This document shows positions 1,986 to 50,315 of a DNA stretch of 64,000 bases, piece after piece (position 1 is the stretch's first letter; each line of letters begins with the position of its first letter). Location of the stretch: positions 12,992,001 to 13,056,000 of the forward strand of contig CP086569.2 of NCBI GenBank assembly GCA_009914755.4. The letters are read 5' to 3'. Source of the stretch: the human T2T-CHM13v2.0 reference genome, Homo sapiens. The position numbers and the translations under genes are program-made. The notes beneath the pieces were generated by a model. It was not told the DNA's origin and did no database searches. It worked only from the letters and a program-made list of their open reading frames with translations.

Positions 1986-2013
1986 TGTTTTTTTGTTTGT
2001 TTGTTTGTTTTTC
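1986..2013. repeat. (GTTT)n microsatellite
   Basis: gtttttttgtttgtttgtttgttttt. Confidence 0.9.
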
Positions 2014-3132
2014 TAAGAAACTAGATGTGTCAGCTTATTTCTTTGGCATCTCAGCTTTCTTGGGCTTTTGGGGATAGGTTTGCACAGACTTGCCCATTAT
2101 GGATGAGGTGTTTGGGAACACCTCATCCCAAAATTCAAGCCAGGAGGACAAAAGGTGAAGACAGTATCAGAGATGCAAAACCCAACCACCAAACCAATAG
2201 TCTAGTCCACCAAGAGATATCCCATTAACCCACAAACCCAGAAAGGTTTAGGTAAGACATTTGGGCTGAGAGGTGAGTGTCTCATGTTAAGGTCAACTAT
2301 GTGTAATGGCACATCTGCAGAATAATGCCAGTCAAAGTGTGCACTGCCTTCTGCTCTGAAGTCCATACAGTCAGGGGACATTACATCCATTCTCTCCGTC
2401 CAATGTGAGCTGAGTTCCTCCATGATCTAACCCTATCACATCACCTTCATCTTCTTGTCTGATTGTCTGATTGTTATGAACAATCAGAACAAGCCTCATG
2501 AAGTTAATCATGGTCTATGTAGCAGCAATAGCCCCAAGCCCCAACCTCCTCCAGACCCTCCAAAACACCTAGGATGGAGACCATGAATTCTCATTAACTT
2601 ATTCCAGCAAATTCAAGATATTCCAATGGACATGCCCATCTTGAACACATGGGCAAATGAACACTGTTAGATCCTGGAGTTGTTTAGCATAAAATACAGA
2701 AAATTTGCCTTTACCTAGGAGATAGAACTTTGAAAATAAAAGGAGCTCTGAAGATGAACCAGGATTCATTCCATCATTTCTCCAAATGAGGACTCTAACA
2801 CCAACAGGGTTAACAAGTGAGTCTTGGTGATATTGCTTGATCAGAGACAAGCCAGGAGAAATTCTCCAGAAATCCTGTCAGCTCCTAAACAGCTCTTGGA
2901 GATCCAACTCTATTACACTATAGGACTGGTATTTCTTGAGGGCTGTTAGGGGGAAAGCCGATGTAACTGTTGTGGCTAACAAGCATGACTCATTGGGTGT
3001 AATCACAAAGCAATTTTATTTTGTCTCTTACTAGCTCTTTCATATATATTCACTGGGGCTTAGAGAGTAGGGAGAGTTTTGTTGGCCTCTGGAGGAAATG
3101 ACAGCCAGCCCCATAACTTTTCTTTAAGCACA

Positions 3133-3907
3133 TGCTCTCTTTCTCCCTCCCTCTTTCCTTCCTTCCCTCTCTTTCCTTTTCTCCTCTCTTTCTCCATCCC
3201 TTCCTTCCTCTGTTTATCCATTTGTTCCTCTCTGTATGGCTCTCTGTCCTTCTTTCTCTTTCTCCCTTACCCTCTTCTCTTTCTCTCTTTTACTTTCTCC
3301 TCCTCCTACTCCTTCTATCTCTCTGTCTTTCTCCTTCCTCCATTCGTATATCTCTAACTATCTCATCTCTCTCTCCCAGTCTGCACTCCCTCTCCCTTAT
3401 CTCTTCTCTCTTTCTCCATTTCTCCTTTCTATTTACCATTCCTTCCTCTTTCTCTCTCACCGTCTTTCCCTCTCTTTCTCTTCCTTACTTCTCTTTCTCC
3501 CCTCTGCTTCCTATTTTTCTTTCTTTCTCTCTCCTTCTCCTCCTTCTTTTTCTCCCCTTCCCTCCCCTCTCTCTTTCTTTGTTTGGTCCTTTTTATATTT
3601 TTCCATTTCCCCCCTTCTTATTCTCTCCTTTCCTCTCTCTTTCTTCCTCTTTTTCTCTCTTTCTGACTCTGCCTCACTCTTCCTCCCTCCTTTCATTTTT
3701 TCCTTTCTCCTTTCCTTTCCTTTTCTTCCCTTTCTCTCTCCTTCCCTCCCTTCCTTTCTTCCTTCCTTCCCTTCTTCCTTCCTTCCTCTCTCTTCTTTCA
3801 TCCCTCTGTCTTTCTCCTTTCTTCTCTCTTCCTTCCTTTCCTTGTCTCCCTCTCTCTTCCTCCATTCTTCTCTCTCCCCTTCCCTTAATTTTTTCCCTCC
3901 CTCCATA
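3133..3907 (+). repeat. Long polypyrimidine (CT-rich: TCTC/CCTT/CTTT) low-complexity tract, about 775 bp
   Basis: Essentially only C and T on the + strand for about 775 bp. The overlapping 275-280 aa ORFs (S/L/F/P-rich) are translation artefacts. Confidence 0.95.
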
Positions 3908-4850
3908 CAAAAGGTGTGTGTCCTATCAGCATCTTCCACATCCACTTGGGAATCATTAAGTCAGAGGAGGATATTAAGAGAAGGCAACTTTGAGCTTCTT
4001 TTCATTCCACCCAGTGGCATAGGCCCAAGTGCAGGAGGAGAGGAAACCTGCTTGGCTCATGTGACGAGCTCTTTCTAGTGTAACTGTAGCAATGATAGAT
4101 AGAAGTCCTTATTTCTCCCCAAGCCCCCTGTAGACATTGCAGCAGGTTCCTAACCCAGTGGGAAGGGACATGCATGACTTACTCTTCAAAGGCTTCAAAG
4201 TCATCATCTAGGAGACCCTGAGAAGGATGGGCTGAGAAACAATGAACTCTGAGCTGTTATGCAATATCAGGGTTGCTTATGTAGCCCTATGGAGGCTGCA
4301 CAAATTTCTGGCTACATTCGCCTGTGACCTTGCAGTTTTTGTCATCTTATGCTATGACTGGGGGTTGCAGCTGCTGGATGTAAGTACAGCCAAAAATACC
4401 AACATTGACACTCACAGGCCGCTGAGGACCTTAAACCATAACATCTCTGGCTGCTGGTGTAGGTATTGTGCCTTATCAAGGAAGGGGCATCATTTCAGTG
4501 GCCTGAACAGAAGTTCAACTAAGTTTCAATGGGCTAAAATAAGGGTCTCTGCAAGAATGGTTCTTCTGGATGCTCCACGAATGAATCTATTTTCTTGCTT
4601 TTTCCAGCTTCTAGAGGTTGCTGTATTCCTTGGCTTGTGGTGCCTTCTTCCTTCTTCCACCATGCCAACTTCTACTCTCCTTGTCACATCTCCTTTTTCT
4701 CTTTCTCTGAATCCAAGTCTTCCTTCTATAAGAAGCATTGAGAATACATTGAACCCACCCAAACAATCCAGAATAATCTCCCCATCTCAAGATTTTTAAC
4801 TTGATCCCATCTGCAAAGTCAGCTTTACCACATAAATCAACATATTCATT

Positions 4851-8040: not shown

Positions 8041-8499
8041 AAGAAAGAACTAAAAGAGAAAAGAAAAGAAGGAAGGCAGGAAGGAAGGAAGAAAGGAAGG
8101 AAGGAAGGAGTGAGGGAGGGAGGGAGGGAGGGAAAAAAGAAAGAAGGGAGAGAGAGGGAGAAAGAGAAGGAAGGAGAGTAGGAAAAAGGAAGGAAGGAAT
8201 GAAGAGAGGAAAGAAGAGAAAGAAGAAAGAATGAAGGAAGATAAAAAGACAGAAAGAAGGGAGAGAGGGAGGGAGGGAAGGAAAGTACAAAAAAGAAGGA
8301 AGAAAGAAGGAAGGAAGGAAGGAAAAAAGAGAAAAAGAAAGACAGAAAGAAAGAGAGAAAGAAAGGAGAGAGGAAGGAAGGAAGGAAGGAAGGAAGGAAG
8401 GAAGGAAGACAGAGAAAAAAAGAAAGAAACAAACAAACAAAGAGAAAGAAAAAAGAGAGAAAGAAAGAGAGAAAGAAAGAAAGGAAAAGAAAGAAAGAG

Positions 8500-8546
<47 letters not shown>

Positions 8547-8620
8547 GAAAGAAAGAAGGAAGGAAAGGAAGGAAGGAAGGAAAGGAAGGAAGGAAGGAAA
8601 GAAAGAAAGAGGGGGAACAG
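8041..8620 (+). repeat. Polypurine (GAAA/GGAA/GGGA)n tract, about 580 bp
   Basis: Only A/G for about 580 bp immediately 3' of the Alu, probably an expanded Alu A-tail. The K/E/R-rich ORFs here are artefacts. Confidence 0.95.
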
Positions 8621-9340
8621 AGAAGTCCATCATGGTGTGTTTGCAAGCCCTTTGCTTTTCTACCTGCCCTGTCTGTCTTTAATGAAATAACTCTTTTGGT
8701 CAGGATCTGAGCCATGAGTATGCTGCAGTTAGCTAAACCAAGACTTCCCTTCCACATTGTGCTGGCAGCGATCCCACAGACGACTGTGGGGCCCAAGAAA
8801 GACAGGTGAGTTAATATCACTCTCTATCCTTACCAGGAACCAGGGCCTGATACAGGCATCAGCTCTGGAGGTTCAGGCAGAATACTTTGCCAAGAGAAAT
8901 CACACCTAGAATTTGGCCTGGAAAACCTCTATACTTGTTTCTGACTCTTTGAATGTTATCATGAAAATATTTTCTAGCCATATTCCAACAATAGAATATT
9001 ATCCAGCCTTAAAAAAGAAAGAAGCTTTGACACACACTGCAGTGTGGATGAACCTTGAAAACACTAAGCTCAGTGAAAGAAACTCTTCACCAAGGACCAC
9101 ATATGGTATGATTCCATTGATAGGAAATGTTCAGAATAAGCAAATCCATAGACAGAAAGCAGATTAGTAGTTGCCAAGGGATGTGGGATCAGGAGTAATT
9201 GGAGAAATTGCAAGGATAGCTAAAGAGTGTGGAATTTCTTGTTGAATTGATGAGAATGTTCTAAAGTTGATTGTGGTGATTGCTGCACAGCTATGAACGT
9301 CCTAAAAATGATTGCTTTGTATACTTTAAATGGGAGAACT

Positions 9341-11080: not shown

Positions 11081-11194
11081 TGGAGATTGTTTGGTCAGTC
11101 CCAGGCATATAATAAGAAATATTTGTCCTAATTTTGATAATATAAAGCAGTCATGGTTTAAGACCTGCTTCTTAGTTTTTTCAGCTACTATAGC

Positions 11195-11470
11195 AGATTA
11201 TCATAAACTGAGTTGCTTATAAACAGAAATATATTGCTTACAGTTATAGAAGCTGGGAAGTCCAAGATCAAGGTGTGGCAGATTCAGTGTCTGGTGGGGA
11301 CCCACTTCCTGGTTCATAGATGGCACCTTCTTGCTGTGACGTCACATGGTGGAAGGAGTGAGGGAGCTCTCTGGGGTCCCTTTTATAAAGACACTAGTCC
11401 CATTCATGAGGCTACACCACCTTATGAGTCTCAGAGGACTCAACCATAACACCATACTTGGCCAATAACT
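11195..11470 (-). mobile_element. Ancient MaLR-like LTR remnant (MLT/MST-type)
   Basis: ttataaacagaaat...ctgggaagtccaagatcaaggtg...cacatggtggaagg...tttataaagacactagtcccattcatgagg..., the MaLR structural motif set. Confidence 0.45.
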
Positions 11471-11574
11471 TAGACTTATCTTTTGCTGGTGAGGGTACTA
11501 CTTTTGTTTGCTACAGTTGCTTCAAAGTTTCACAGACTTGGAGGCTTAAAAATCAGAAATATGTCTTTTTATGT

Positions 11575-11875
11575 ATCTGAAGGCTGGAAATCTGAGATCA
11601 AGGTGTAGGCAGAGCTGGTTGCTCTTGAAACCTCTCACCTCAGCTTGCAGACATAATCTTTTCCATGTGTCTTCACGTGGTTGTCCCTCTATGTGTGCCT
11701 TTGTCATTTCCTTTTCTTATAAGGATACCAGTTCTATTGGATCAGGGCCCACTCTAGTGACCTCATTTTACTCTAAGTACCTCTTGAAAGACCCTGTGTT
11801 CAAATGCAGTCATTTCAGTCATAGCATCTTGAACCGTATCTTTAAATCAGGTCCTGGGGTTTAGGCTTCAATGTA
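11575..11875 (-). mobile_element. Ancient LTR-like remnant (related motif set)
   Basis: ggctggaaatctgagatcaaggtgtaggcag...cttataaggataccagttctattggatcagggcccactc... Confidence 0.35.
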
Positions 11876-13004
11876 TAAATTTAGCAGGGACACAAGTCAG
11901 TCCATAAGTGGTAGGTAGGGAGGTAGAGCAGTGAATGAACAGCGTTTCTACTGGAAATGCCCCAAGAAGAAAGGTGATGTTTGCCATTGTCCTTCTAGGT
12001 CACCTCTCCTAGATTCTAGCACCTTTCTGTGGTCACACCAACTGATGGGCTAGAGAGTCACCAGTTACAAGCTAGATAAATGCTGTACTTAGACCAGGTC
12101 TTTATGATACAAAATAATAGACGACTGTGGATGTTTAAATTATTGTGTCCAACCTCTACATGGTCTCCCACAATGAAAGTGATTCTGAGCCCTTTGAAGC
12201 TCCAGAATCCATGGCTAGACCTTCATGTAGGGATTGGTGTCATCCAATCAGATTTAGGAGAAAAGAGTGAGGTCCCTGCAGAAGAGGGACTGCAGCCTCC
12301 AATGCCTTCAGACTCAAGCTGCAACATCAGTCCTTCCCTGGGTCTCCAGCTTGCAGGTGGCTCTCATCCATTCTTTCTGACTGCTGTGTAATATTTCATA
12401 GTGTGAATAGTCAATTGTAGGAATCAGAATTCAAAGATGGCTGCCAAGACTTTGGGCCCTGATGAGCACACAGATTGTTCAGTCAAACATGAATCTGGGT
12501 GTTACTGTGATGGGATTTTGCAGACATCGTTAATGTTCCAAATAAGTGGACCCTAAGAAAGGGAGCTTGACCTAATCACATGAGCTATCTAAACCTGGGC
12601 CTAGAGTCAGACACAGGGAAGTCAGACATCCAAAGTAGCAGTGAAATTCCCCTGATGACTTTGCAGATAAAAAAACTGCCATGTTGTGGAAAGGGCCATG
12701 GGGCCACTACCTGTAGAAGCTGAGAATGGCTCTGGCTAACAGCTAGAAACATGTTGGAGACACACTCCTTCAGCCTCTAGGAACTCAATTCTGCCAACAA
12801 CCAGGGAGCTGAGAAGAAGGCACCCAGCTTCAGATGACACTGCAACCCTGACAACACATGATTTCAGCCTGGGGAGACCCTCAGTAGAGAACTCAGCCAG
12901 GACATGTTCAGATATCTAATGTATAGCACTCTGAGATGATAAATGGGGATTGTTTCAAGCCACCAAGTTTATAATTTGTTATGTAGTAGTAAAAAATACA
13001 CACA

Positions 13005-17342: not shown

Positions 17343-17909
<567 letters not shown>

Positions 17910-18678: not shown

Positions 18679-18976
18679 GGCCAGGTGCGGTGGCTCATGT
18701 TTCTAATCCCAGCACTTTGGGAGACCAAGACGGGTGGATCATGAGGTCAGGAGATCAAGACCATCCTGGCTACCACAGTGAAACCCTATCTCTACTAAAA
18801 ATACAAAAACTGAGCTGGGGGTGGTGGTGGGCACCTGTAGTCCCAGCTACTCAGGAGGCTGAGGCAGGAGAATGGCATGAACCTGGGAAGTGGAGCTTGC
18901 AGTGAGCCGAGATCACGCCACTGCCCACCAGGCTGGACAACAGAGCAAGACTCCGTCTCAGAGAAAAAAAAAAAAA
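18679..18976 (+). mobile_element. Alu element with a roughly 16-bp TSD
   Basis: ggccaggtgcggtggctcatgtttctaatcccagcactttggg...gtctcagagaaaaaaaaaaaaa. Flanks aaagtaatagcaaca (5') and aaagtaattgcaaca (3'). Confidence 0.9.
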
Positions 18977-19001
18977 GTAATTGCAACAACCGCAATGCCT
19001 T

Positions 19002-19296
19002 TTTTTTTTCCTTTTTTGAGATGAATTCTCATTCCATTGCCCAGGCTGGAGTGTAGTGACACAATCTCACTCACTGCAACCTCTACCTCCTGGCTTCAAG
19101 CAGTCTTCCAGCCTCAGCCTCCCAAGTAGCTGGGACTACAGACACACGACACCACACCCCAGCTAATTTTTGTATTTTTAGTAGAGACGGGGTTTCCCAT
19201 GATGGCCAGGCTTGTCTCGAACTTCCGAGTTCAGGTAATCCACCCATCTTGGCCTCCCAAAGCACGGGATTACAAGCCTAAGCCACAACTCCTGGC
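19002..19296 (-). mobile_element. Alu element (antisense)
   Basis: ttttttttttccttttttgagatgaattctcattccattgcccaggctggagtgtagtg...cccaaagcacgggattacaagcctaagccacaactcctggcc. Confidence 0.9.
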
Positions 19297-19799
19297 CAAA
19301 AACTGCAATGATTTTTGCAACAACCTAATAGTTTTTGTTCATCTCAAAACAAACTTCACACAATGGTTATAATTCCTAGATTTCAGTTCACTGTCTTCCT
19401 CAGCTTCCTCCCTTAGAACTCTATGGTTTTTAACCTAAATGTACTGCAGAAACCTAAGAGCTACAGAGAAAATAGCACTACATATTCTTTCAACAGCTCT
19501 TCTGGGCTTCCAATGAATAATGACTTTATACCAAAAAAATCATCTGAGTTTTTATGAAAAAGTTGGAAGGAAATGGAGAATGAGAAGATTGGTGACTTTT
19601 CATTTAAAATTTATTTCCTTGGAATGTTATGTGTTGCGAGAAATCTCAAATCCTGTTTTTTCAAGTGAAAAAAAGGGAGATAAGAGAAGTGGGGTGAAAA
19701 AAGACTTTAGAGAAGATAGAATCAGTGTCAGCCATATCTTCTTCCCCAGTGGAGAAGAAATCATCTCTTTTAAAATCCATGTGCTATAATGAGAACACA

Positions 19800-26580: not shown

Positions 26581-26890
26581 CTGGATGAAATTGGAAATCA
26601 TCATTCTCAGTAAACTATCTCAAGAACAAAAAACCAAACACCGCATATTCTCTCTCATAGGTGGGAATTGAACAATGAGAACACATGGACACAGGAAGGG
26701 GAACATCACACTCTGGGGACTGTTGTGGGGTGGGGGGAAGGGGGAGGGATAGCACTAGGAGATATACCTAATGCTAGATGACGAGTTAGTGGGTGCAGCG
26801 CACCAGCATGGCACATGTATACATATGTGACTAATCTGCACATTGTGCACATGTACCCTAAAACTTGAAGTATAATAATAAAAAAAGGGG
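26581..26890 (+). mobile_element. L1PA 3' end fragment
   Basis: ctggatgaaattggaaatcatcattctcagtaaactatctcaagaacaaaaaaccaaacaccgcatattctctctcataggtgggaattgaacaatgagaacacatggacacagg...gggtgcagcgcaccagcatggcacatgtatacat...cctaaaacttgaagtataataataaaaaaa. Confidence 0.9.
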
Positions 26891-27019: not shown

Positions 27020-28562
27020 AAACATCTTTTCTTTCCTTTCTTCCTTTTCTTTCTTTTTCCTTCCTTCCTGCTGGCTTTTCTTGCTCTTTTTTCTTTCCTC
27101 TTCCTTTTTCCTCTTTCTTCCTTTCCCCTCCCTCTCTTTCTCCCTCTCTCCTTCCTTCTTTCTCTTTTTTCTTTTTCTTTCTTTCTTCTTTTTCTTTTCT
27201 TTCTTTATTTCTTTCCTTTCTTTTTTCTCTCTCTTTCTTTTGCTTTATTTCTATTTTCTTTCCTCTCCTTTGTGCTCTTCCTTCCTTTCCCATCCCTCTC
27301 TTTCTCCCTCTCTGTATCCTTCCTTCCTTCCTTCTCTCTCTTTCTTTCTCTTTATTTCTTTTTTCTTTCCCCTTCCTTTTTGCTCTTTCTTCCTTTCCCC
27401 TCCCTCTCTTTCTCCCTCTCTCTCCTTCCTTCCTTCCTCCCTCCTTCCCCCTTCCCTCCCTCTCTTCTCTTTTCCCTTCACTTCCCTTCTCTTCTCCCTT
27501 CCCTTCTTTTCTCTCCTTCCTTCCCCCCCTTTCTTTCTTTCTCTCTCTTTTCTTTGTGTCTTTCTCTCTCTTTTTTCCTTCTTCTTTCATTCTTCTTCCC
27601 TTTTTCTTTCTTTCTTCCTTTCCCACTTCTCTTTTTCCCCCTCAATTTTCCTTCCCTCCCTTCCTTCTTTCCTTCCTTCCTGCCTTCCTCCCTTCCTGCC
27701 TTCCTCCCTCCCTCTCTTCCTCCCTCCCCCTCCTTCCCTCCATCTCCCTCTCTCCTCCCTTTCTTTTATATTCTTTTTTCTCTTTTCTTCTTTCTTTCTT
27801 TCTTTCATTCTTTCTTGCTTGCTTGCTTGCTTTCTCTCTCTTTCCTTTTCCTTTTTGTTCTTTCTTCCTTTACCTTCCCTTTCTTTCTCTCTCTCTATCC
27901 TTCCTTCCTTCCTCTCTCCTTCACTCTCTTCTCTCTTCTCTTCTCTCCTTCCTTCCTTCCTTTCCTCTTTGTCTTTCTTTTTTCTCTCTTTCTTTTTTTT
28001 CTTTCTTCTTCCTTTTTTCTTCTTTCTGTCTTCCTTTCCCCTCCTTCTCTTTTTCCCTCTCTCAATTTCCCCTCCCTTCCTTTCTTCCTGCCTTCCTGCC
28101 TTCCTTCCTCCCTCCCCCTCCTTCGCTCCTCCCCCTCCTTCCCTCCCTCCCCCTTCCTCCCCCCTTTCTTTTATATTCTTTTATTTTCTCTTTTCTTTCT
28201 TCTTCCTTTTTCTCTCTTTCACTTTCTTTTCTTTCTTCTGTTTCTCTCTTTCTTTCTTCCTTTCCCCTACCTCTCTTTCTCTCCCTCCCTTCTTCCCTCC
28301 CTTCATCCGTCTCTGTCTTTCTCCCTTCCTCTTCCTTCCCTTCTCTTCCCTTCCCCTCCCTCCCTCCCACCCTCCCTCCCTTCCTTCTTTTCCCTCTGTA
28401 TTCCTTTTTCTTCTTTCCTTCCTTTCTTTCTCTTTCTTCCTTTGCCTTTTCTCTTTTATTCTTTCTCCCTTTCTGCCTTTCTCGTGTACCTCCCTCCCTT
28501 CGTTTCCCCTTTCTTTCTTATTTCCTTCCTTGCTTGCTTTCTGCCTTCCTTTTTTTTTTTCC
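27020..28562 (+). repeat. Giant polypyrimidine (CT-rich: TTCC/TCTC/CTTT/CCCT) low-complexity tract, about 1.54 kb
   Basis: About 1540 bp almost exclusively C/T on the + strand, with rare g/a interruptions. The 434-534 aa ORFs and the antisense K/E/R/G-rich ORFs are artefacts. Confidence 0.95.
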
Positions 28563-28659
28563 AGAGCCCCTGTTAGTATCTTGAAGAACCAGACCCTTGC
28601 AGAATAGCCTGGGAGAAATGTTGCTGTACCATTAATGTCTCCCATGTTTTTTACTACAG

Positions 28660-29760
28660 TCTTCATGAATTCCACAGTAAACTCCAATTTCAAACTTCCT
28701 CTTGAGTTTTCGATCCACCTAGTGACTGTCCTGCATGCTCAACACAAAGATCATATGACACTGCATTATCTCAACCCTCCAGATTATCCATTCCCAGGAT
28801 CTCCTATTTCTCAAAATTTTTACCTGAAGCTTTCATCTCTCTTTCTCTAACATAATAATCTCTCTATTTTATTTTCTCTTTCCCACCAGAAGCCAATCAC
28901 CTACTTTGATTGAATAATTATTATGAACTGAATTAAACCCTTTTGCTCCAAATTCATGGGTTTCAGCAGTATAAATCCTCATGTGAGATTATGTGAAGAC
29001 AAAGCCTTCAGGGAGGTGATTGGGTTTAGGTAAAATCATAAGAGAGGGGTGTTAATCTGATATGGCTGGTGAATTTATAAGAAGAGGAAAACATTTCAGA
29101 GTTCTCCATCTGCACAAACACAGAAGGACAAACTGTGAAGACATGGTGAGAAGACAACATCTACAAGTCAATGAGGGAGGCCTCAGGAAGAACCAGCCTT
29201 GCCCACACCTTGATCTCAGATGTCCAGCTTCCTGGACTGTAGAAGAGTAAATGTCTGTTGTTTAAGCCTCCCTGTCTATGGCATTCTGTGATAGCAGTCT
29301 TATAAGGAGAGGAGATGAGGACACAGACACAGGCACAGAGACAACCATGTAATGACACAGGGAAAAGATGATGTCTACAAAGTAAGGGGAGAGGCCTCAG
29401 GAGGAACCTTCCCTGCCTACACCTTGATCTTGGATGTTCAGCTTCAAGGATTGTGGGAGAATCAATATCTATTATTTCTAAGCCACCCAGTCTATGGTAT
29501 TCTGTTATAGTATCCTGAAATACACTAAGATATCTCATTAGAAGATAAGATGAGGACACAGACACACACAGAGGGATGACCCTGTGAGGATACAACCCTG
29601 TGAGGACACAAGGAGAAGGTGGCATCTACAAGCCAAGGAGCAGGTCTCAGGAGAAACCAGCCCTGGGTACACCTTGATCTTAGACTTCCAGCTTCAAGGA
29701 CTGTGGGAGAATCAGTGTCTGTTGTTTGAGCCATCGGGTCTGTAGGACTTTGTTACGATA
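28660..29760 (+). mobile_element. MaLR-type (MLT1-like) LTR copy A, with a tandem triplication of its 3' roughly 230 bp (29100-29760)
   Basis: Shares about 640 bp of co-linear homology (roughly 88 percent identity) with 31005-31640. Contains ...ggaggtgattgggtttaggtaaaatcataagagagg... and ...ctgtagaagagtaaatgtctgttgtttaagcctccctgtctatggcattctgtgatagcag.... The last roughly 230 bp segment recurs three times in tandem. Confidence 0.6.
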
Positions 29761-30478
29761 GCCCTAATGGATGGATATGCTGTTCTTTAAGCCTGTGGCC
29801 ATCACCATTCCTCTCCTCTGTCACCACCCTCAACCAGGCCTTCATCAACTGCAGCACAGCTCATAAATAGTTCCGAAAAGATTCTTCTGAGCTTTCCATG
29901 GGCTCACTGCCCATGGAAATTGAGCTGATTGAGCTTCAGAGTTTTTTTTTATGTTCAATTATATGCAAGTTATGTGGGATTCCACTCTATGGTGCAGAAG
30001 TGGAATAAAGATGACTCTTTTAATCAGTTTCATTTCCTTCTAAAGTTGTGGTTGCTGTTCATTTTTTTTTCTTTAAACATTCTTTGAACAATTTACCACC
30101 CTTTTGCCAAAGCTTTCATCATTTTCCATTTCTCCCTAGACTCCTATCTTCTCCAGATCTGAGTTCACCATAGCCTGCATCTCAGCTGCAAGTCTACAAG
30201 CCGGCTCTTCTTGGAATTGAGGTCTAAGAACACTGGAGATTTTTCGGAGTCCATGGAAGTATTAAAAAATGCAACTCAAGTGCATTCATGGCTTGGTCTT
30301 GCTAGATGAGGTGACTTATTCTACAGTAACAGAAACATACTATCTAAACTAGAGTTTTAGTTTCTCAGTCGTTTAATGTGTATCTCATGTCTAGAGCTGT
30401 TCAAAGTACAGATGCTCCTCAACTTTAACAATAGGGCTACACCCCATAAACCCATTATAAGTTGAAAATAGTGTAAGT

Positions 30479-30797
30479 CTAGGCTGCACACAGTGGCTCG
30501 TGACTGAAGTCCAGGAACTTTGGAAGGCAGAGATGGGAGAATCACTTGAGCCCAGAAGTTAGAGACCAGACTGTGCAACATACTGAGACTCTGTCTCTGC
30601 AAAAGAAAAAAAAAATGAACTGGGCATAGCGGTACACACCTGTAGTCCAACTTGGGAGGCTGAGGCAGAAGGATCACTTGAGTACCGGAGGTTGAGGCTG
30701 CAGTGAGCTATGACTGTACCGCTGTCCTCCAGCCTGGGGAACAGAGTGAGACACTGTCTCAAAAAAAAAAAAAAAAGAAAGAAAGAAAAGAAAAAAC
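30479..30797 (+). mobile_element. Alu element with an A/(GAAA)-rich tail
   Basis: aggctgcacacagtggctcgtgactgaagtccaggaactttggaaggcagagatgggagaatcacttgag...ccagcctggggaacagagtgagacactgtctcaaaaaaaaaaaaaaaagaaagaaagaaaag. Confidence 0.9.
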
Positions 30798-31004
30798 TCA
30801 AATTGTAAGTCTAAAATGCATTTAATACACCTACCCTAATGAATCCTGATACAAAGATTCTATTAAGCTGTTTATTTGGGTGGGGAGCAAGGAAGAACAA
30901 ACAGAAATTGGAGAAATGAGCTAGAGAGTGGAGAAAGTCCTTGGTCATCTTTACCAAGCAGGTGACCACCATGGATAACCAGGGTGAAGTCCCTGGCTGA
31001 AGTA

Positions 31005-31640
31005 AGCTCCAATTTCAAACTTCCTCTTGAGTATTTCAAACCACCTAGCCACTGTCCTGCAGTCTCAACACAAAGATCATGTGATACTGCATCATCTCAA
31101 CTCTCCAAATTATCCATTCCCAGGCTCTCCTATTTCTCAAAAATTTTACATGAAGCTCTTATGTCTCTTTCTCTAATTTAATACTCTCTACATTTTTATT
31201 CCCTCTTTCCCACCAGAAGCCAATCATCTACTTTGGTTGAATAATTACTATGAGCTGAATTATGCCCTTTTGCCCAAAATTCATGGGTTTAAGCCAGAAA
31301 ACCCCATGTGAGATTATGTGAAAACAGAGCCTTTAGGAGGTGATTGTGTTTAGGTAAAATCATAAGAGAGGAGTCTTAATCTTTATAAGAAGAGTAACCA
31401 TTTCAGAGTTCTCCCTCTGCACACACACAGAGGGACAACCACCTGAGGATACAGGGAGAAGATAGTGACTACAATCTACAAGCCAAGCAGAGAAGCCTCA
31501 AGAGGAAGCAGCCCTGCCCACACCTTAATCTCAGACTTATAGCCTCCGTGACCCTGAGAGAATCAATATCTGTTGTTTACAAGCCACTCAGTCTATGGTA
31601 TTCTGTGATAGCAGACTGAAATGGACTAAGACACTTCATA
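31005..31640 (+). mobile_element. MaLR-type (MLT1-like) LTR copy B
   Basis: gtaagctccaatttcaaacttcctcttgagtatttc...ggaggtgattgtgtttaggtaaaatcataagagagg...gagaatcaatatctgttgtttacaagccactcagtctatggtattctgtgatagcagactgaaatggactaagaca. Confidence 0.65.
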
Positions 31641-32612
31641 AAAAGAGATCAGGATGCATAAGGATTCATAAGAAGAGATCAGCTTTTCCAAAGCTGCAAG
31701 CTTTGGAAAGAGAACAGAATACTCTTTCCAGCTGTGGGATGGGTGAATGAGAGTACTTGCCCTTCAACACTCATTAGTCCTTAGCTGAGGGCAGTTCTTT
31801 GTGGGACCTCCTAGATTCTCGGCACTCTGGCTTGACTAACACATGTCCAACTATCAGGCTCCCCTGGTCACATAAAGACCTCAAGCAAAGGAGCACAGGG
31901 GCACCCTGTTGGAAGCATTAGGGTCAGCGTGTGCTATAATATAATGCAGGAAGGATGTGACATTACAGATCAGTGAGCAAATGAGGAACTATTCAATAAA
32001 TAGAGCTGAGGCAATTGGTTTTCCATATGGAAAAAAATGAAAGCAATATGAACCCTCCCTCCACTACACATATACATATTTCCAGATGGATTAAAGTTAA
32101 ACCTCTAGAAAGAAATATAGGAAAAATATCTCTCTCATCTTGGAGTCCAAAAGCATTCTTTCTTAAAGACACAAAAATATTAACTGTTGAAGGAAATGCC
32201 ATGCTAACAACTTACCCATAAGAACTTTTGTTTTTCAAAAGACTCCATAAATAAAATGAAAAGGAAATGCCAATATAGGAGAAAAACTGCACAAAGCCTT
32301 CAGAAAAGAAGATATCAAATGATTTATATCCAGACATATACAAACCTTGAGATACATAGAAAAGATACAACTTCTTAGAAAACTCAGAAAGTCAAAGAGG
32401 AGGTATTACACGCAAGTGACCTCAAAATGTTGGAAATGATGCTTGATTTTGTTAATTCAGGGAAAGATAAAACCACAATGTGATAAATATCTTATCCATT
32501 TAATTAGCAAAAGTTTCAATTTTCTGAAAATTCAAGCATTGAAGAGAATCTAGCTCAACAGAGAGTACTTAGATAATGATATTGGCTGTGCAAATTAATA
32601 CTAACTCTGGAA

Positions 32613-41492: not shown

Positions 41493-41527
41493 AGACACAT
41501 TCTATAAGGTATAAGGACACAGGTATT

Positions 41528-42380
41528 GGGCGAAGGATATGAACAGACACTTCTCAAAAGAAGATATTTATGCAGCCAAAAAACACATGAAAAAATGCTC
41601 ATCATCACTGGCCATCAGAGAAATACAAATCGAAACCACAATGAGATACCACATGAAACCAGTTAGAATGGAGATCATTAAAAAGTCAGGAAACAACAGG
41701 CACTGGAGAGGATGTGGAGAAATAGGAACACTTTTACACTGTTGGTGGGACTGTAAATTAGTTCAACCATTGTGGAAGTTGGTGTGGTGATTCCTCGGGG
41801 ACCTAGAGCTAGAAATACCATTTGACCCAGCCATCTCATTACTGCATATATACCCAAAGGATTATAAATCATGCTGCTATAAAGACACATGCACACGTAT
41901 GTTTATTGTGGCACTATTCACAATAGCAAAGACTTGGAACCAACCCAAATGTCCAACAATGATAGACTGGATAAAGAAATGTGGCACATATACACCATGG
42001 AATACTATGCAGCCATCAAAAATGAAGAGTTCATGTCCTTTGTAGGGACATGGATGAAGCTGGAAACCATCATTCTCAGCAAACTATCACAAGGACAAAA
42101 AACCAAACACCACATGTTCTCACTCATAGGTGGGAACTGAACAATAAGAACACATGGACACAGTAAGAGGAACATCACACACCAGGGACTGTTGTGGGGT
42201 GGAGGGAGGGGGTAAGGATAGCACCAGGAGATATACCCAATGCTAAATAATGAGTTAATGGGTGCAGCACACCAACATGGCACATGTATACATATGTAAT
42301 AAGCCTGCATGTTGTGCACATGTACCCTAAAACTTAAAGTATAATAATAATAAAAATAAAAATAAAAATAAATTTAAAAA
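41528..42380 (+). mobile_element. 5'-truncated L1PA insertion (ORF2 C-terminus + 3'UTR + tail) flanked by a perfect 15-bp TSD
   Basis: Body runs from gggcgaaggatatgaacagacacttctcaaaagaagatatttatgcagcc to ...catgtaccctaaaacttaaagtataataataataaaaataaaaataaaaataaatttaaaaaa. The TSD aaggacacaggtatt sits at 41513-41527 and 42381-42395. Confidence 0.9.
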
Positions 42381-44589: not shown

Positions 44590-46670
44590 CTACAATTGAT
44601 GGAAAAAATCCAAATCATCCCAAACATAATCTAAACAGAACCAATGACAACAACCACCTCATTATCTCAATAGTTGCAGAAAAGGCTTTCAATAAAATTC
44701 AACACCCCTTCATGCTAAAAACTCTCAAAAAACATAGGTATCAATGCAATCTATCTCAAAATAATAAGAGTTAGTTATGACAAACTCACAGCCAATATCA
44801 TACTAAATGGGCAAAAGCTTAAAGCATTCCCTTTGAAAACAAGCACAAAGACAAGGATGCCTGGTCTCACCACTCCTGTTCAAAATAGTATTGGAAGTTC
44901 TGGCCAGGGCAATCAGGCAAGAGAAAGAAATAAAGCGTATTCAGATAGGAAGAGAGGAAGTCAAATTGTCTCTCTTTGCAGATGAGATAATTGTTTATGT
45001 AGAAAACCCCATCGCCTCAGCCCTTTAAGCTGATAAACAACTTCAGCAAAGTTTCCTTAATCTCCTTAAGCTGATAAGCAACTTCAGCAAAGTTGCAGGA
45101 TACCAAATCAATGTGGAAAAATCATAGGCATTGCTATACTCCAATAATAGACTTCTTTAAATTTCATATGGAGCCAAAAAAAGAGCCTGTGTGGCCAGGA
45201 AAATACTAAGCAAAATGAACAAAGCTGGAGGCATCACACTAACTGACTTCAAACTATACTACAAGTTTACAGTAACCAAAACAGCATGGTACTTGTACCA
45301 AAAGAGAGATATAGACTATAGACCAATGGAACAGAACAGAGGCCTCAGAAATAATACCACACATCTACAACCATCTGATCTTTGATAAACCTGACAAAAA
45401 CAAGAAATGGGGAAAGGATTCCCTAATTAATAAATGCTGCTGGGAAAACTGGCTAACCAAATATAGAAAGCTGAAACTGGATCCGTTCTTTACACCTTAT
45501 ACAAAATTTAATTCAAGATGGATTACAGACTTATATGTTAGACCTAAAACCATAAAAACTCTGAAGAAAACCTAAGCAATACCATTCAGGATCTAGGCAT
45601 GGGCAAGGACTTCCTGACTAAAACAAAAAAGCAATAGCAACTGAAGCCAAACTAGACAAATGGGATCTAATTAAACTAAAGAGCTTCTGCACAGCAAAAG
45701 AAACTACCATCAGAGGGAACAGGAAACCTACAGAATGGGAGAAAAATTTTGCAATCTACCCAAATGACAAAGGGCTAATATCCAGAATCTACAAAGAACT
45801 TAAACAAATTTACGAGAAAAAAATCAAACAACCCCATCAAAAAGTGGGCAAATGGTATGAACAGGCACTTCTCAAAAGAAGACATTTATGCCAACAGACA
45901 CATGAAAAAATTTTCATCATCACTGGTCATCAGAGAAATGCAAATCAAAACAACAGTGAGATATCATCTTACATCAGGTAGAATGGAGATCATTAAAAAG
46001 TCAGGAAACAACAGGTGCTGGAGAGGATGTGGAGAAATAGGAATGCTTTTACACTGTTGGTGGGACTGTAAACTAGTTCAACCATTGTGGAAGACAGTGT
46101 GGCAATTCCTCAAGGATCTAAAGCTAGAAATACCATTTGACCCAGCTATCCCATTACTGGGTATATACCCAAAGGATTATAAATCATGCTACTATAAATA
46201 CACATGCACATGTATGTTTATTGCAGCAGTATTCACAATAGCAAAGACTTGGAACCAACCCAAATGTCTGTCAGTGATAGGCTGGATTAAGAAAATGTGG
46301 CACTTATATACCACGAAATACTATACAGCCATAAAAAAAGGATAACTTTATGTCCTTTATAGAAACATGGATGCAGCTGGAAATCATCATTCTGAGCAAA
46401 CTATCACAAGGACGGAAATCCATACACCGCATGTTCTCACTCGTAGGTGGGAATTGAACAATAAGAACACTTGGACACAGGGCAGGGAACATCACACAAC
46501 AGGGCCTGTCATGGTGTTGGGGAGGGATAGCATTAGGAGAAATACCTAATGTAAATGACGAGTTAATGGGTGCAGCAAACCAACTCGGCACATGTATACA
46601 TATATAATGAACCTGCACGTTTTGCACATGTACCCTAGAACTTAAAGTATAATAATAATAAAAAAAAAAG
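44590..46670 (+). mobile_element. 5'-truncated L1 (ORF2 RT-domain 3' half through 3'UTR and A-tail), older L1PA/L1PB; contains a 33-bp internal tandem duplication at about 45021-45099
   Basis: Translated pieces match L1 ORF2: ...[24 protein letters not shown]..., ...[38 protein letters not shown]..., ...[39 protein letters not shown]...[57 protein letters not shown].... The 3'UTR ends ...ccctagaacttaaagtataataataataaaaaaaaaag. Confidence 0.9.
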
Positions 46671-49994: not shown

Positions 49995-50315
49995 GGACAT
50001 GGATGAAATTGGAAATCATCATTCTCAGTAAACCATCTCAAGAACAAAAAACCAAAAACCGTATACTCTCACTCATAGGTGGGAATTGAACAATGAGAAC
50101 ACATGGACACAGGAAGGGGAACATCACACTCTGGGGACTGTAGTGGGGTGGGGAGAGGGGGTACGGATAGCTTTAGGAGATATACCTAATGCTAAATGAC
50201 GAGTTAATGGGTGTAGCACACCAGCATAGCACATGTATACATATGTAACTAACCTGAACATTGTGCACATGTACCCTAAAATTTAAAGTATAATAATAAT
50301 AAAATATAAAAAAAT
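49995..50315 (+). mobile_element. L1PA 3' end fragment with A-rich tail
   Basis: ggacatggatgaaattggaaatcatcattctcagtaaaccatctcaagaacaaaaaaccaaaaaccgtatactctcactcataggtgggaattgaacaatgagaacacatgg...catgtaccctaaaatttaaagtataataataataaaatataaaaaaa. Confidence 0.9.

What the first reader, a model, noticed from the sequence alone, without database searches (positions are those of the whole stretch)
28660..31640. Two co-oriented MLT1-like LTR copies 2.3 kb apart (about 88 percent identical); the upstream copy carries a 3x tandem duplication of its terminal 230 bp
Intervals 28668-29300 and 31005-31640 are co-linear over about 640 bp. They share rare features such as the ...tttaggtaaaatcataagagagg... 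segment. That is closer than two random copies of an old MaLR subfamily would be. Either they are the 5' and 3' LTRs of one heavily deleted MaLR provirus, with 29760-31000 (minus the Alu at 30479-30797) as internal remnant, or a local segmental duplication. In the upstream copy the terminal about 230 bp (…cctcaggaagaaccagcc…ccacaccttgatct…gtttaagcc…ctatgg…) recurs three times head-to-tail (about 29100-29330, 29330-29560, 29560-29760), forming an LTR-internal minisatellite.
Basis: partly seen in the sequence, partly recalled or inferred. Interest (0 to 1): 0.5.

Follow-up and report, generated by a model that had tools for sequence, protein, structure and literature searches.

The report
Locally duplicated old MLT1 LTR block
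An ancient, decayed retrotransposon LTR (MLT1 type) in primate-like DNA was copied, together with 243 bases of neighbouring non-LTR sequence, to a second place 2.3 kb away; this is ordinary genome wear and tear, not the two ends of one provirus.

Summary
A (28676-29308) and B (31001-31625) are co-oriented and co-linear (blastn E 7e-171, 87% identity over 604 aligned bases). Both carry an MLT1-type LTR.

Three corrections apply:
1. The canonical LTR 5' end is at A 28919 and B 31246. The first 243 nt of the shared block ('f', 90% identical) therefore lie outside the LTR.
2. The three head-to-tail units in A are real (29072-29297, 29298-29532, 29537-29779). They are only 74-78% alike, no closer than each is to an unrelated MLT1 copy 17 kb away, and TRF does not call them. 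This is an ancient triplication, not a minisatellite. The unit includes the LTR's 3' terminus, so it is not LTR-internal.
3. A-B identity is uneven: about 90% up to A 29124 / B 31431, about 81% after that.

A and B share many derived changes (17 shared against 6 and 1 private in the 5' LTR part). They are 62-69% identical to independent MLT1 copies. No target-site duplication was found, and the spacer holds an unrelated dispersed repeat carrying an Alu.

Best reading: a solo MLT1 LTR with an early 3'-half triplication was later duplicated locally along with its flank. The 5'/3' LTR-pair reading is not supported. Interest is low.

The parts
28676..28918 (+). f(A): non-LTR sequence directly upstream of LTR A, shared with B
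   Evidence: 90.0% identical to 31001-31245 over 240 aligned nt, K2P 0.108. No other copy in the window or in loci L001-L004. It lies upstream of the canonical LTR start defined by independent copies.
28919..29071 (+). LTR A, 5' part (starts TATTATGAACTGAAT)
   Evidence: It starts at the same position as C1 (cTTATGGACTGAC) and L004 (TGCTATTGACTAAAT). It is 88.1% identical to B. Relative to C1 and L004 there are 17 derived sites shared with B, 6 private to A and 1 private to B.
29072..29297 (+). U1: 3' part of LTR A, from TTTATAAGAAGAGG to GATAGCAG; lacks the last ~19 nt of the LTR
   Evidence: Alignments; junction read. Its first ~55 nt are 89% identical to B, the rest 81.7%.
29298..29532 (+). 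U2: second head-to-tail unit; starts TCTTATAAGGAGAGG and ends with the LTR terminus ...ACTAAGATA
   Evidence: (D5, D7, D9, D11). 77.6% identical to U1 and 76.0% to U3 over the distal 170 nt.
29537..29779 (+). U3: third unit, beginning 4 nt after the U2 terminus (CATTAGAAGATAAG...); contains a 16-nt x2 micro-duplication at 29579-29611
   Evidence: It shares 6 derived sites with U2.
29780..31000 (.). Spacer between the copies. It contains an Alu (about 30482-30799, with target-site duplication) inserted into a fragment of another dispersed repeat (about 30398-30481 and 30800-30860)
   Evidence: No homology to the sequence downstream of B or upstream of A. No significant Pfam hit in six frames (one sub-threshold hit, E 0.11). 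The fragment at 30424-30472 matches 61512-61562, and that second copy is also interrupted by Alus.
31001..31245 (+). f(B): second copy of the non-LTR block
   Evidence: The left edge of homology is sharp (ga|AGTAAGCTCC against ac|AGTAAACTCC).
31246..31633 (+). LTR B: a single complete MLT1-type LTR ending ...GGACTAAGACA. It has a private 16-nt deletion before TTTATAAG and a private 7-nt insertion

Best explanation
One MLT1-type (ERVL-MaLR) LTR inserted here long ago, most likely ending up as a solo LTR.

Early in its residence, the stretch from the TATA-like TTATAAGAAGAGG motif to the LTR's 3' end (about 230-240 bp) was duplicated twice in tandem. This gave U1-U2-U3.

Later, a block was copied in direct orientation to a site 2.3 kb downstream. 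The block comprised 243 bp of upstream non-LTR sequence, the LTR 5' part, and one unit. The mechanism was non-retroviral, for example replication template switching, or a larger tandem duplication followed by deletion.

The copies then decayed neutrally. An Alu landed in the spacer.

Shown here: the anatomy, the extent of homology, the shared derived changes, and the relative divergences.

Inferred: the order of events, the mechanism, and the timing. K2P of 0.11-0.13 in the well-matched part would be of the order of 25-65 million years at 1-2.2e-9 substitutions per site per year. No function is implied.
For: - The A/B homology is far beyond chance (E 7e-171; 87.1% over 604 nt).
- The homology begins 243 nt upstream of the LTR's 5' end. 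That end is fixed by two independent MLT1 copies whose upstream flanks are unrelated to f.
- f is as similar between A and B (90%) as the LTR 5' part is (88%).
- At 83 sites in the 5' LTR part polarised by C1 and L004, 17 are derived and shared by A and B, 6 are private to A and 1 is private to B.
- A and B are 61.6-68.7% identical to C1 and L004, and C1 is 60.4% identical to L004. The A/B split is therefore much younger than the family.
- U1 and UB (B's single 3' unit, 31381-31633) share a roughly 12-nt insertion (TTCTCCATCTGC) that is absent from U2, U3 and C1. This fits the order: array first, then the U1 insertion, then the A/B split.
- U2 and U3 start at the same LTR position, and U2 keeps the LTR terminus. 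That indicates genomic tandem duplication.
- Units are 74-78% alike, about the same as each is to C1 (74.5-78.3%). The triplication is therefore about as old as the insertion.
- MLT1 is an ancestral mammalian LTR group, and most ERVL/MaLR insertions are solo LTRs (PMC5538554).
Against: - Identity drops from 89.9% to 81.3% at about A 29124 / B 31431. In the distal 170 nt, U1-UB (81.7%) is barely closer than U1-C1 (77.5%) or U3-UB (80.6%). A single recent duplication should give uniform divergence. Something extra is needed: gene conversion, unit exchange within the array, or an older duplication with later conversion of the 5' 450 nt.
- B has one unit where A has three, so a loss or a partial copy must be assumed.
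- The apparent vestige of a next unit after B's LTR end is not significant: 463 of 5000 random windows score as well.
- The spacer shows no homology to either outer flank, so the duplication mechanism cannot be reconstructed.
- The origin of f is unknown. No curated MLT1 or MaLR-int consensus could be consulted.
Confidence: 0.7

Rival explanations
1. f is the 3' end of a MaLR internal region. The locus would then be the remnant of a tandem 'int-LTR-int-LTR' structure, made by unequal recombination between the LTRs of one MLT1 provirus. In that case 29780-31245 is a decayed internal region and the upstream internal copy is truncated at 28676.
For: - Without the Alu, the stretch between LTR A and LTR B is about 1150 nt. 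That lies within the 1-2 kb noncoding internal fragment described for MaLRs (PMC5538554).
- f abuts the LTR 5' end exactly in both copies.
- The lack of any significant Pfam hit does not count against this, because MaLR internal regions are noncoding.
Against: - There is no purine tract immediately upstream of either LTR (..TTTGATTGAATAAT|TATTATG).
- Nothing resembling a primer-binding site is evident after U3.
- The spacer holds a fragment of a different dispersed repeat that has a second copy at about 61386-61560.
- Homology stops sharply at 28676/31001 instead of continuing into more internal sequence.
- f has no other copy upstream of the independent LTRs available (C1, L004). Those may simply be solo LTRs, so this point is weak.
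Confidence: 0.15
2. The A/B duplication is as old as the tandem triplication, so all four units date from one early episode. The higher identity of the first ~450 nt (f plus the LTR 5' part) would then come from a later ectopic gene conversion between the two copies.
For: - Identity is two-tier, with a change point at A 29124 / B 31431.
- The four units are roughly equidistant in their distal 170 nt, at 74-82%.
- Derived-site sharing among them is star-like, with long private branches: 12-20 private sites against 2-6 shared per pair.
Against: - The heterogeneity is modest. LRT is 7.6 with a searched change point, and Fisher p of 0.006 is post hoc.
- U1-UB is still the closest pair overall.
- The conversion tract would have to reach exactly to the left homology boundary.
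Confidence: 0.12
3. A and B are the 5' and 3' LTRs of one heavily deleted MLT1 provirus, as the reader proposed first.
For: - The two copies have the same orientation.
- The spacing is compatible with a short MaLR internal region (PMC5538554).
- The distal LTR parts are about as diverged as independent copies.
Against: - The homology extends 243 nt beyond the LTR 5' end.
- There are many shared derived changes.
- 88-90% identity in the 5' part is far above the 60-69% seen among independent copies of this ancient family.
- The ends do not match as a target-site duplication: CCACA or ATAAT on the left against CTTCA on the right.
- The block does not begin with TG.
Confidence: 0.03

Closest known systems
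Solo LTR of the MLT1 group (ERVL-MaLR, ancestral mammalian LTR retrotransposons)
   Same: - Full-length alignment to independent MLT1-type LTRs.
- Same 5' start (TGYTATGGACTGAAT-like) and the same 3' end (...ACTAAGACA).
- Same internal landmarks: TTATAAGAAGAGG, ACACCTTGATCT and GTTTAAGCC...GTCTATGG.
   Different: - It is present twice, each time with the same non-LTR flank.
- One copy has its 3' 230-240 bp in three tandem copies.
- No recognisable target-site duplication.
- The subfamily was not assigned, because no Dfam or Repbase access was available.
Full-length MaLR element (LTR, 1-2 kb noncoding internal region, LTR)
   Same: Two co-oriented LTRs separated by about 1.15 kb of noncoding sequence once the Alu is removed.
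   Different: - The homology is not confined to the LTRs.
- The copies are too similar in the 5' part for the age of the family.
- No PPT, PBS or target-site duplication is evident.
- The spacer contains a different repeat.
Small local (intrachromosomal) segmental duplication, as produced by replication template switching or unequal exchange
   Same: A direct repeat of an arbitrary block that crosses a repeat/non-repeat boundary, with shared derived substitutions and indels, and a sharp left breakpoint.
   Different: - Only about 0.63 kb is duplicated, with a 1.2-kb non-duplicated spacer.
- Divergence along the block is uneven.
Minisatellite / VNTR derived from a retroelement (e.g. the SVA VNTR)
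   Same: Head-to-tail copies of a retroelement segment.
   Different: - Only three copies, 74-78% alike.
- Below TRF's detection threshold.
- No sign of ongoing homogenisation, so it is a fossil rather than a variable array.

Membership tests
MLT1-type LTR (ERVL-MaLR) | Sequence homology along the whole LTR to independent members of the family | tested here: met
   A and B align from end to end with C1 (window 11908->11500, minus strand) and L004 (metagenome contig) at 61.6-68.7% identity. Their 3' halves also align with C2, L002 and L003.
MLT1-type LTR (ERVL-MaLR) | Canonical termini (5' TG..., 3' ...CA) at the positions seen in other copies | tested here: met
   The 5' start is TATTATGAACTGAAT in A and TACTATGAGCTGAAT in B, against TGCTATTGACTAAAT in L004. 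The 3' end is ...GGACTAAGACA in B and ...ACTAAGATA in U2, against ...GACTAAGACA in L003. The TG is mutated to TA in both copies.
MLT1-type LTR (ERVL-MaLR) | Short target-site duplication flanking the insertion | tested here: not met
   ATAAT upstream of both LTR starts, against CTTCA (after B), TCTCA (after U2) and ctgtt (after U3). At this age decay is expected, so this is weak evidence.
MLT1-type LTR (ERVL-MaLR) | Best match to a curated MLT1 subfamily consensus (Dfam/Repbase) | not testable with these tools
   No repeat library is available.
Single MaLR provirus (5' LTR, internal region, 3' LTR) | Homology between the two repeats ends at the LTR termini | tested here: not met
   The homology continues for 243 nt upstream of the LTR start at 90% identity.
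Single MaLR provirus (5' LTR, internal region, 3' LTR) | LTR-LTR divergence of about twice the divergence from the family ancestor, with few shared derived changes | tested here: not met
   17 shared derived sites against 6 and 1 private in the 5' part. A-B is 88-90% identical there, against 60-69% between independent copies. The distal 170 nt alone would be compatible.
Single MaLR provirus (5' LTR, internal region, 3' LTR) | Internal region homologous to MaLR-int, with a PBS after the 5' LTR and a polypurine tract before the 3' LTR | not testable with these tools
   No MaLR-int reference is available. By eye there is no purine tract before either LTR. Part of the spacer is another dispersed repeat. 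The lack of any significant Pfam hit is uninformative, because MaLR-int is noncoding (PMC5538554).
Single MaLR provirus (5' LTR, internal region, 3' LTR) | One target-site duplication around the whole unit | tested here: not met
   TCCAC/CCACA before 28676 or ATAAT before 28919, against CTTCA after 31633.
Minisatellite (tandem repeat array) | Head-to-tail copies of one unit | tested here: met
   U1, U2 and U3 are separated by 0 and 4 nt. Start-to-start spacings in register are 214 and 250 (D5). Junctions were read.
Minisatellite (tandem repeat array) | Units clearly more alike than unrelated copies of the same element; detectable by TRF | tested here: not met
   Units are 74.1-77.6% alike, against 74.5-78.3% to C1. 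TRF reports no period of about 230.
Local segmental duplication | The duplicated block crosses element boundaries and carries shared derived substitutions and indels | tested here: met
   f plus the LTR are duplicated together. Shared derived features include the TTTT insertion, the GGTAAAATCATAAGAGAGG variant and the roughly 12-nt U1/UB insertion.

The most novel reading that the evidence does not exclude
The 450-nt stretch that stays about 90% identical between the two copies (f plus the LTR 5' part) may be kept alike by recurrent ectopic gene conversion, or by constraint on a co-opted regulatory element, while the adjacent 3' units drift freely. That would make this a small example of concerted or constrained evolution of a duplicated LTR-plus-flank module.
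Probability: 0.07. Interest if true: 0.3.

Novelty: already known. Interest (0 to 1): 0.08.

Why it matters
It matters little beyond correct annotation. The case shows that two similar, co-oriented LTRs a couple of kilobases apart need not be a provirus. The extent of homology relative to the LTR termini, and the shared derived changes, settle the question. If annotated as a provirus, the pair would give a false LTR-LTR insertion age for an MLT1 element.

Tried and rejected
- **Public collection scans.** The f 25-mer gave 0 hits in viral contigs and 0 in genome contigs. An MLT1 3' motif gave 0 hits in viral contigs, 0 in genome contigs and only 4 short contigs in metagenome contigs. Those four were enough for outgroups but not for a proper consensus or for finding MaLR-int.
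- **Simple 2.3-kb tandem duplication.** I tested whether the spacer is homologous to the sequence after B or before A. It is not.
- **Vestige of a next unit after B.** I tested whether the sequence after B's LTR end (CTTCATAAAAAGAGATCAGGA) is a remnant of the next tandem unit. The resemblance is not significant against random windows, so I dropped it as evidence.
- **UB as a hybrid unit.** I tested whether B's unit is a U1/U2 or U1/U3 hybrid left by array collapse. No A unit reaches the ~89% expected for an ortholog.
- **Conversion of U1 by U2/U3.** I tested whether U1 was converted by its neighbours. Derived-site sharing is symmetric, 7 against 5.
- **Six-frame Pfam scan of the spacer plus f.** No significant hit; one sub-threshold hit at E 0.11.
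- **Rfam scan of the whole window.** The only match is an Alu scoring as SRP RNA elsewhere in the window.
- **Large protein searches.** I did not run them. MaLR internal regions are noncoding and the result would not change the verdict.
Full report
**Context.** The window is primate-like interspersed-repeat DNA. It holds many Alus, several L1 3' ends and long polypyrimidine tracts. The only Rfam match at gathering score is an Alu scoring as SRP RNA.

**Check of the observation.** Blastn of 28600-31700 against the whole window gives one strong non-self match: 28676-29308 to 31001-31625, same strand, E 7e-171. A global alignment has 87.1% identity over 604 aligned positions, with K2P 0.14 and 16 gap events. 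The quoted tttaggtaaaatcataagagagg motif is in both copies (D12).

Three head-to-tail copies of the LTR's 3' part are also present in the upstream copy (D5/D7/D9/D11; alignments). The Alu in the spacer is real and has flanking direct repeats.

**Where the LTR begins and ends.** An unrelated MLT1-type LTR lies on the minus strand at 11908->11500 (C1), with a second fragment at 11450->11170 (C2). A scan of metagenome contigs with a conserved MLT1 3' motif returned four short contigs that look like mammalian DNA. One of them, L004, contains a full LTR.

In a joint alignment, C1 and L004 both start at the position corresponding to A 28919 (TATTATGAACTGAAT) and B 31246. Their upstream flanks are unrelated to the sequence upstream of A and B. 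The LTR 3' terminus (...ACTAAGACA) is at B 31633, and in A at the end of U2 (29532).

The first 243 nt of the A/B block (28676-28918 and 31001-31245, here called f) therefore lie outside the LTR. They are 90.0% identical, as similar as the LTR 5' part at 88.1%. The left edge of homology is sharp and does not begin with TG.

**Provirus or duplication.** Four results argue against a 5'/3' LTR pair:
- The homology is not co-extensive with the LTR, as shown above.
- At 83 sites of the 5' LTR part where C1 and L004 agree, A and B share 17 derived states and have only 6 and 1 private ones. Shared indels include a TTTT insertion and the GGTAAAATCATAAGAGAGG variant. LTRs of one provirus are identical at integration and afterwards accumulate only private changes.
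- A and B are 61.6-68.7% identical to C1 and L004, which are 60.4% identical to each other. MLT1 is an ancestral mammalian group (PMC5538554). A genuine MLT1 LTR pair should by now be about as diverged as unrelated copies, not 88-90% alike.
- No combination of ends gives a 5-bp target-site duplication.

Whatever f is, a post-insertion duplication of a block containing non-LTR sequence is required. If f were the 3' end of a MaLR internal region, the rival reading is a tandem int-LTR-int-LTR structure. The spacer length of about 1150 nt without the Alu fits the 1-2 kb noncoding MaLR internal fragment (PMC5538554). Against that rival:
- There is no purine tract before either LTR.
- The homology stops abruptly at 28676/31001.
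- Part of the spacer (about 30398-30481 and 30800-30860) belongs to another dispersed repeat. It has a second, likewise Alu-interrupted copy at about 61386-61560.

A six-frame Pfam scan of the spacer found no significant hit; the only match was sub-threshold at E 0.11. This is uninformative for a noncoding internal region. I could not consult Dfam, so the identity of f and of 29780-30395 remains untested.

**The tandem units.** The units are U1 29072-29297, U2 29298-29532 and U3 29537-29779. U2 and U3 begin at the same LTR position, the TATA-like TCTTATAAG motif. U1 lacks the last ~19 nt of the LTR. U2 carries the LTR terminus and is followed after 4 nt by U3. The repeated segment therefore runs through the LTR's 3' end. 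It is a genomic tandem duplication rather than an LTR-internal repeat.

U2 and U3 share 6 derived sites. U1 and B's unit (UB, 31381-31633) share 5 derived sites plus a roughly 12-nt insertion absent from U2, U3 and C1. All four units have long private branches, with 12-20 private sites out of 175.

Over the distal 170 nt, unit pairs are 74.1-81.7% identical, and each unit is 74.5-78.3% identical to the unrelated C1. TRF reports no array of this period. The triplication is therefore about as old as the insertion itself, and is a fossil rather than a minisatellite.

**Unexplained detail.** A/B identity is 89.9% up to A 29124 / B 31431 and 81.3% beyond. The LRT is 7.6, and Fisher p of 0.006 is for the best split, chosen post hoc. 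In the distal part, U1-UB is scarcely closer than other unit pairs.

I tested three explanations:
- UB as a collapsed hybrid of A-type units. No A unit reaches about 89% to it.
- Conversion of U1 by its neighbours. Derived-site sharing is symmetric.
- A vestige of a next unit after B. Not significant.

What remains is either an older A/B duplication with later gene conversion of the 5' 450 nt, or rate and alignment noise. The data here cannot decide between them.

**Most likely history (inferred).** The steps are:
1. An MLT1 insertion.
2. An early tandem triplication of the 3' 230-240 bp.
3. A small insertion in U1.
4. A local, non-retroviral duplication of f, the LTR 5' part and one unit to a site 2.3 kb downstream. 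K2P of 0.11-0.13 corresponds to very roughly 25-65 million years at 1-2.2e-9 per site per year.
5. Private indels: a 16-nt deletion and a 7-nt insertion in B, and loss of the U1 terminus in A.
6. An Alu insertion in the spacer.

The spacer shows no homology to either outer flank. A simple 2.3-kb tandem duplication is therefore no longer visible, and the mechanism cannot be reconstructed.

**Verdict.** 'MLT1-like' is right. The provirus reading is not supported, and local duplication of an old LTR together with its flank is. This is ordinary genome decay of a known kind, and interest is low.

Noticed in passing
window 27024-28560: A 1.5-kb almost pure polypyrimidine (CT-rich) tract made of degenerate 4- to 200-nt periodicities lies about 110 nt upstream of copy A. 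A purine-rich counterpart in inverted orientation lies at about 8041-8626. Window 2001-4000 also has strongly negative GC and AT skew.
   Followed up: no
window 11170-11908 (minus strand): Two adjacent MLT1-type LTR pieces sit about 50 nt apart on the minus strand: a near-full copy at 11908->11500 and a 3' part of a different-looking subfamily at 11450->11170. They were used here as outgroups.
   Followed up: partly
window 30398-30860 and 61386-62040: Two copies of one dispersed repeat (tacagatgctcctc...ataaacccat.ataagttgaaaat...) are each interrupted by Alu insertions next to the gttgaaaat stretch. The second copy also has a local duplication of gtttaacaatagggttacat.
   Followed up: partly
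window 31635-31683: Directly after the end of LTR B there are two copies of TTCATAA(A/G)AAGAGATCAG, 30 nt apart. The motif resembles the LTR-internal TTATAAGAAGAG, but the resemblance was not significant against random windows.
   Followed up: yes
window 41527-42368, 45151-46668, 54924-56438 (also 26582-26886, 49995-50314): Several co-oriented repeat copies that look like L1 3' ends are 86-92% identical to one another, the longest pair over 1.5 kb. An L1 ORF2-like stretch (…ELFNK…) starts near 31950. The L1 identification is from memory and was not tested.
   Followed up: no
window 18679-19297: This region matches its own reverse complement over 627 nt at 74%. The arms match Alu-like repeats elsewhere in the window, which suggests two Alu elements in inverted orientation next to each other. 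The Alu at 17537-17653 scores as Metazoa_SRP in Rfam.
   Followed up: no
window 29579-29611: A 16-nt unit (ACCCTGTGAGGACACA) is duplicated in tandem inside U3. It accounts for part of the length difference between units.
   Followed up: yes
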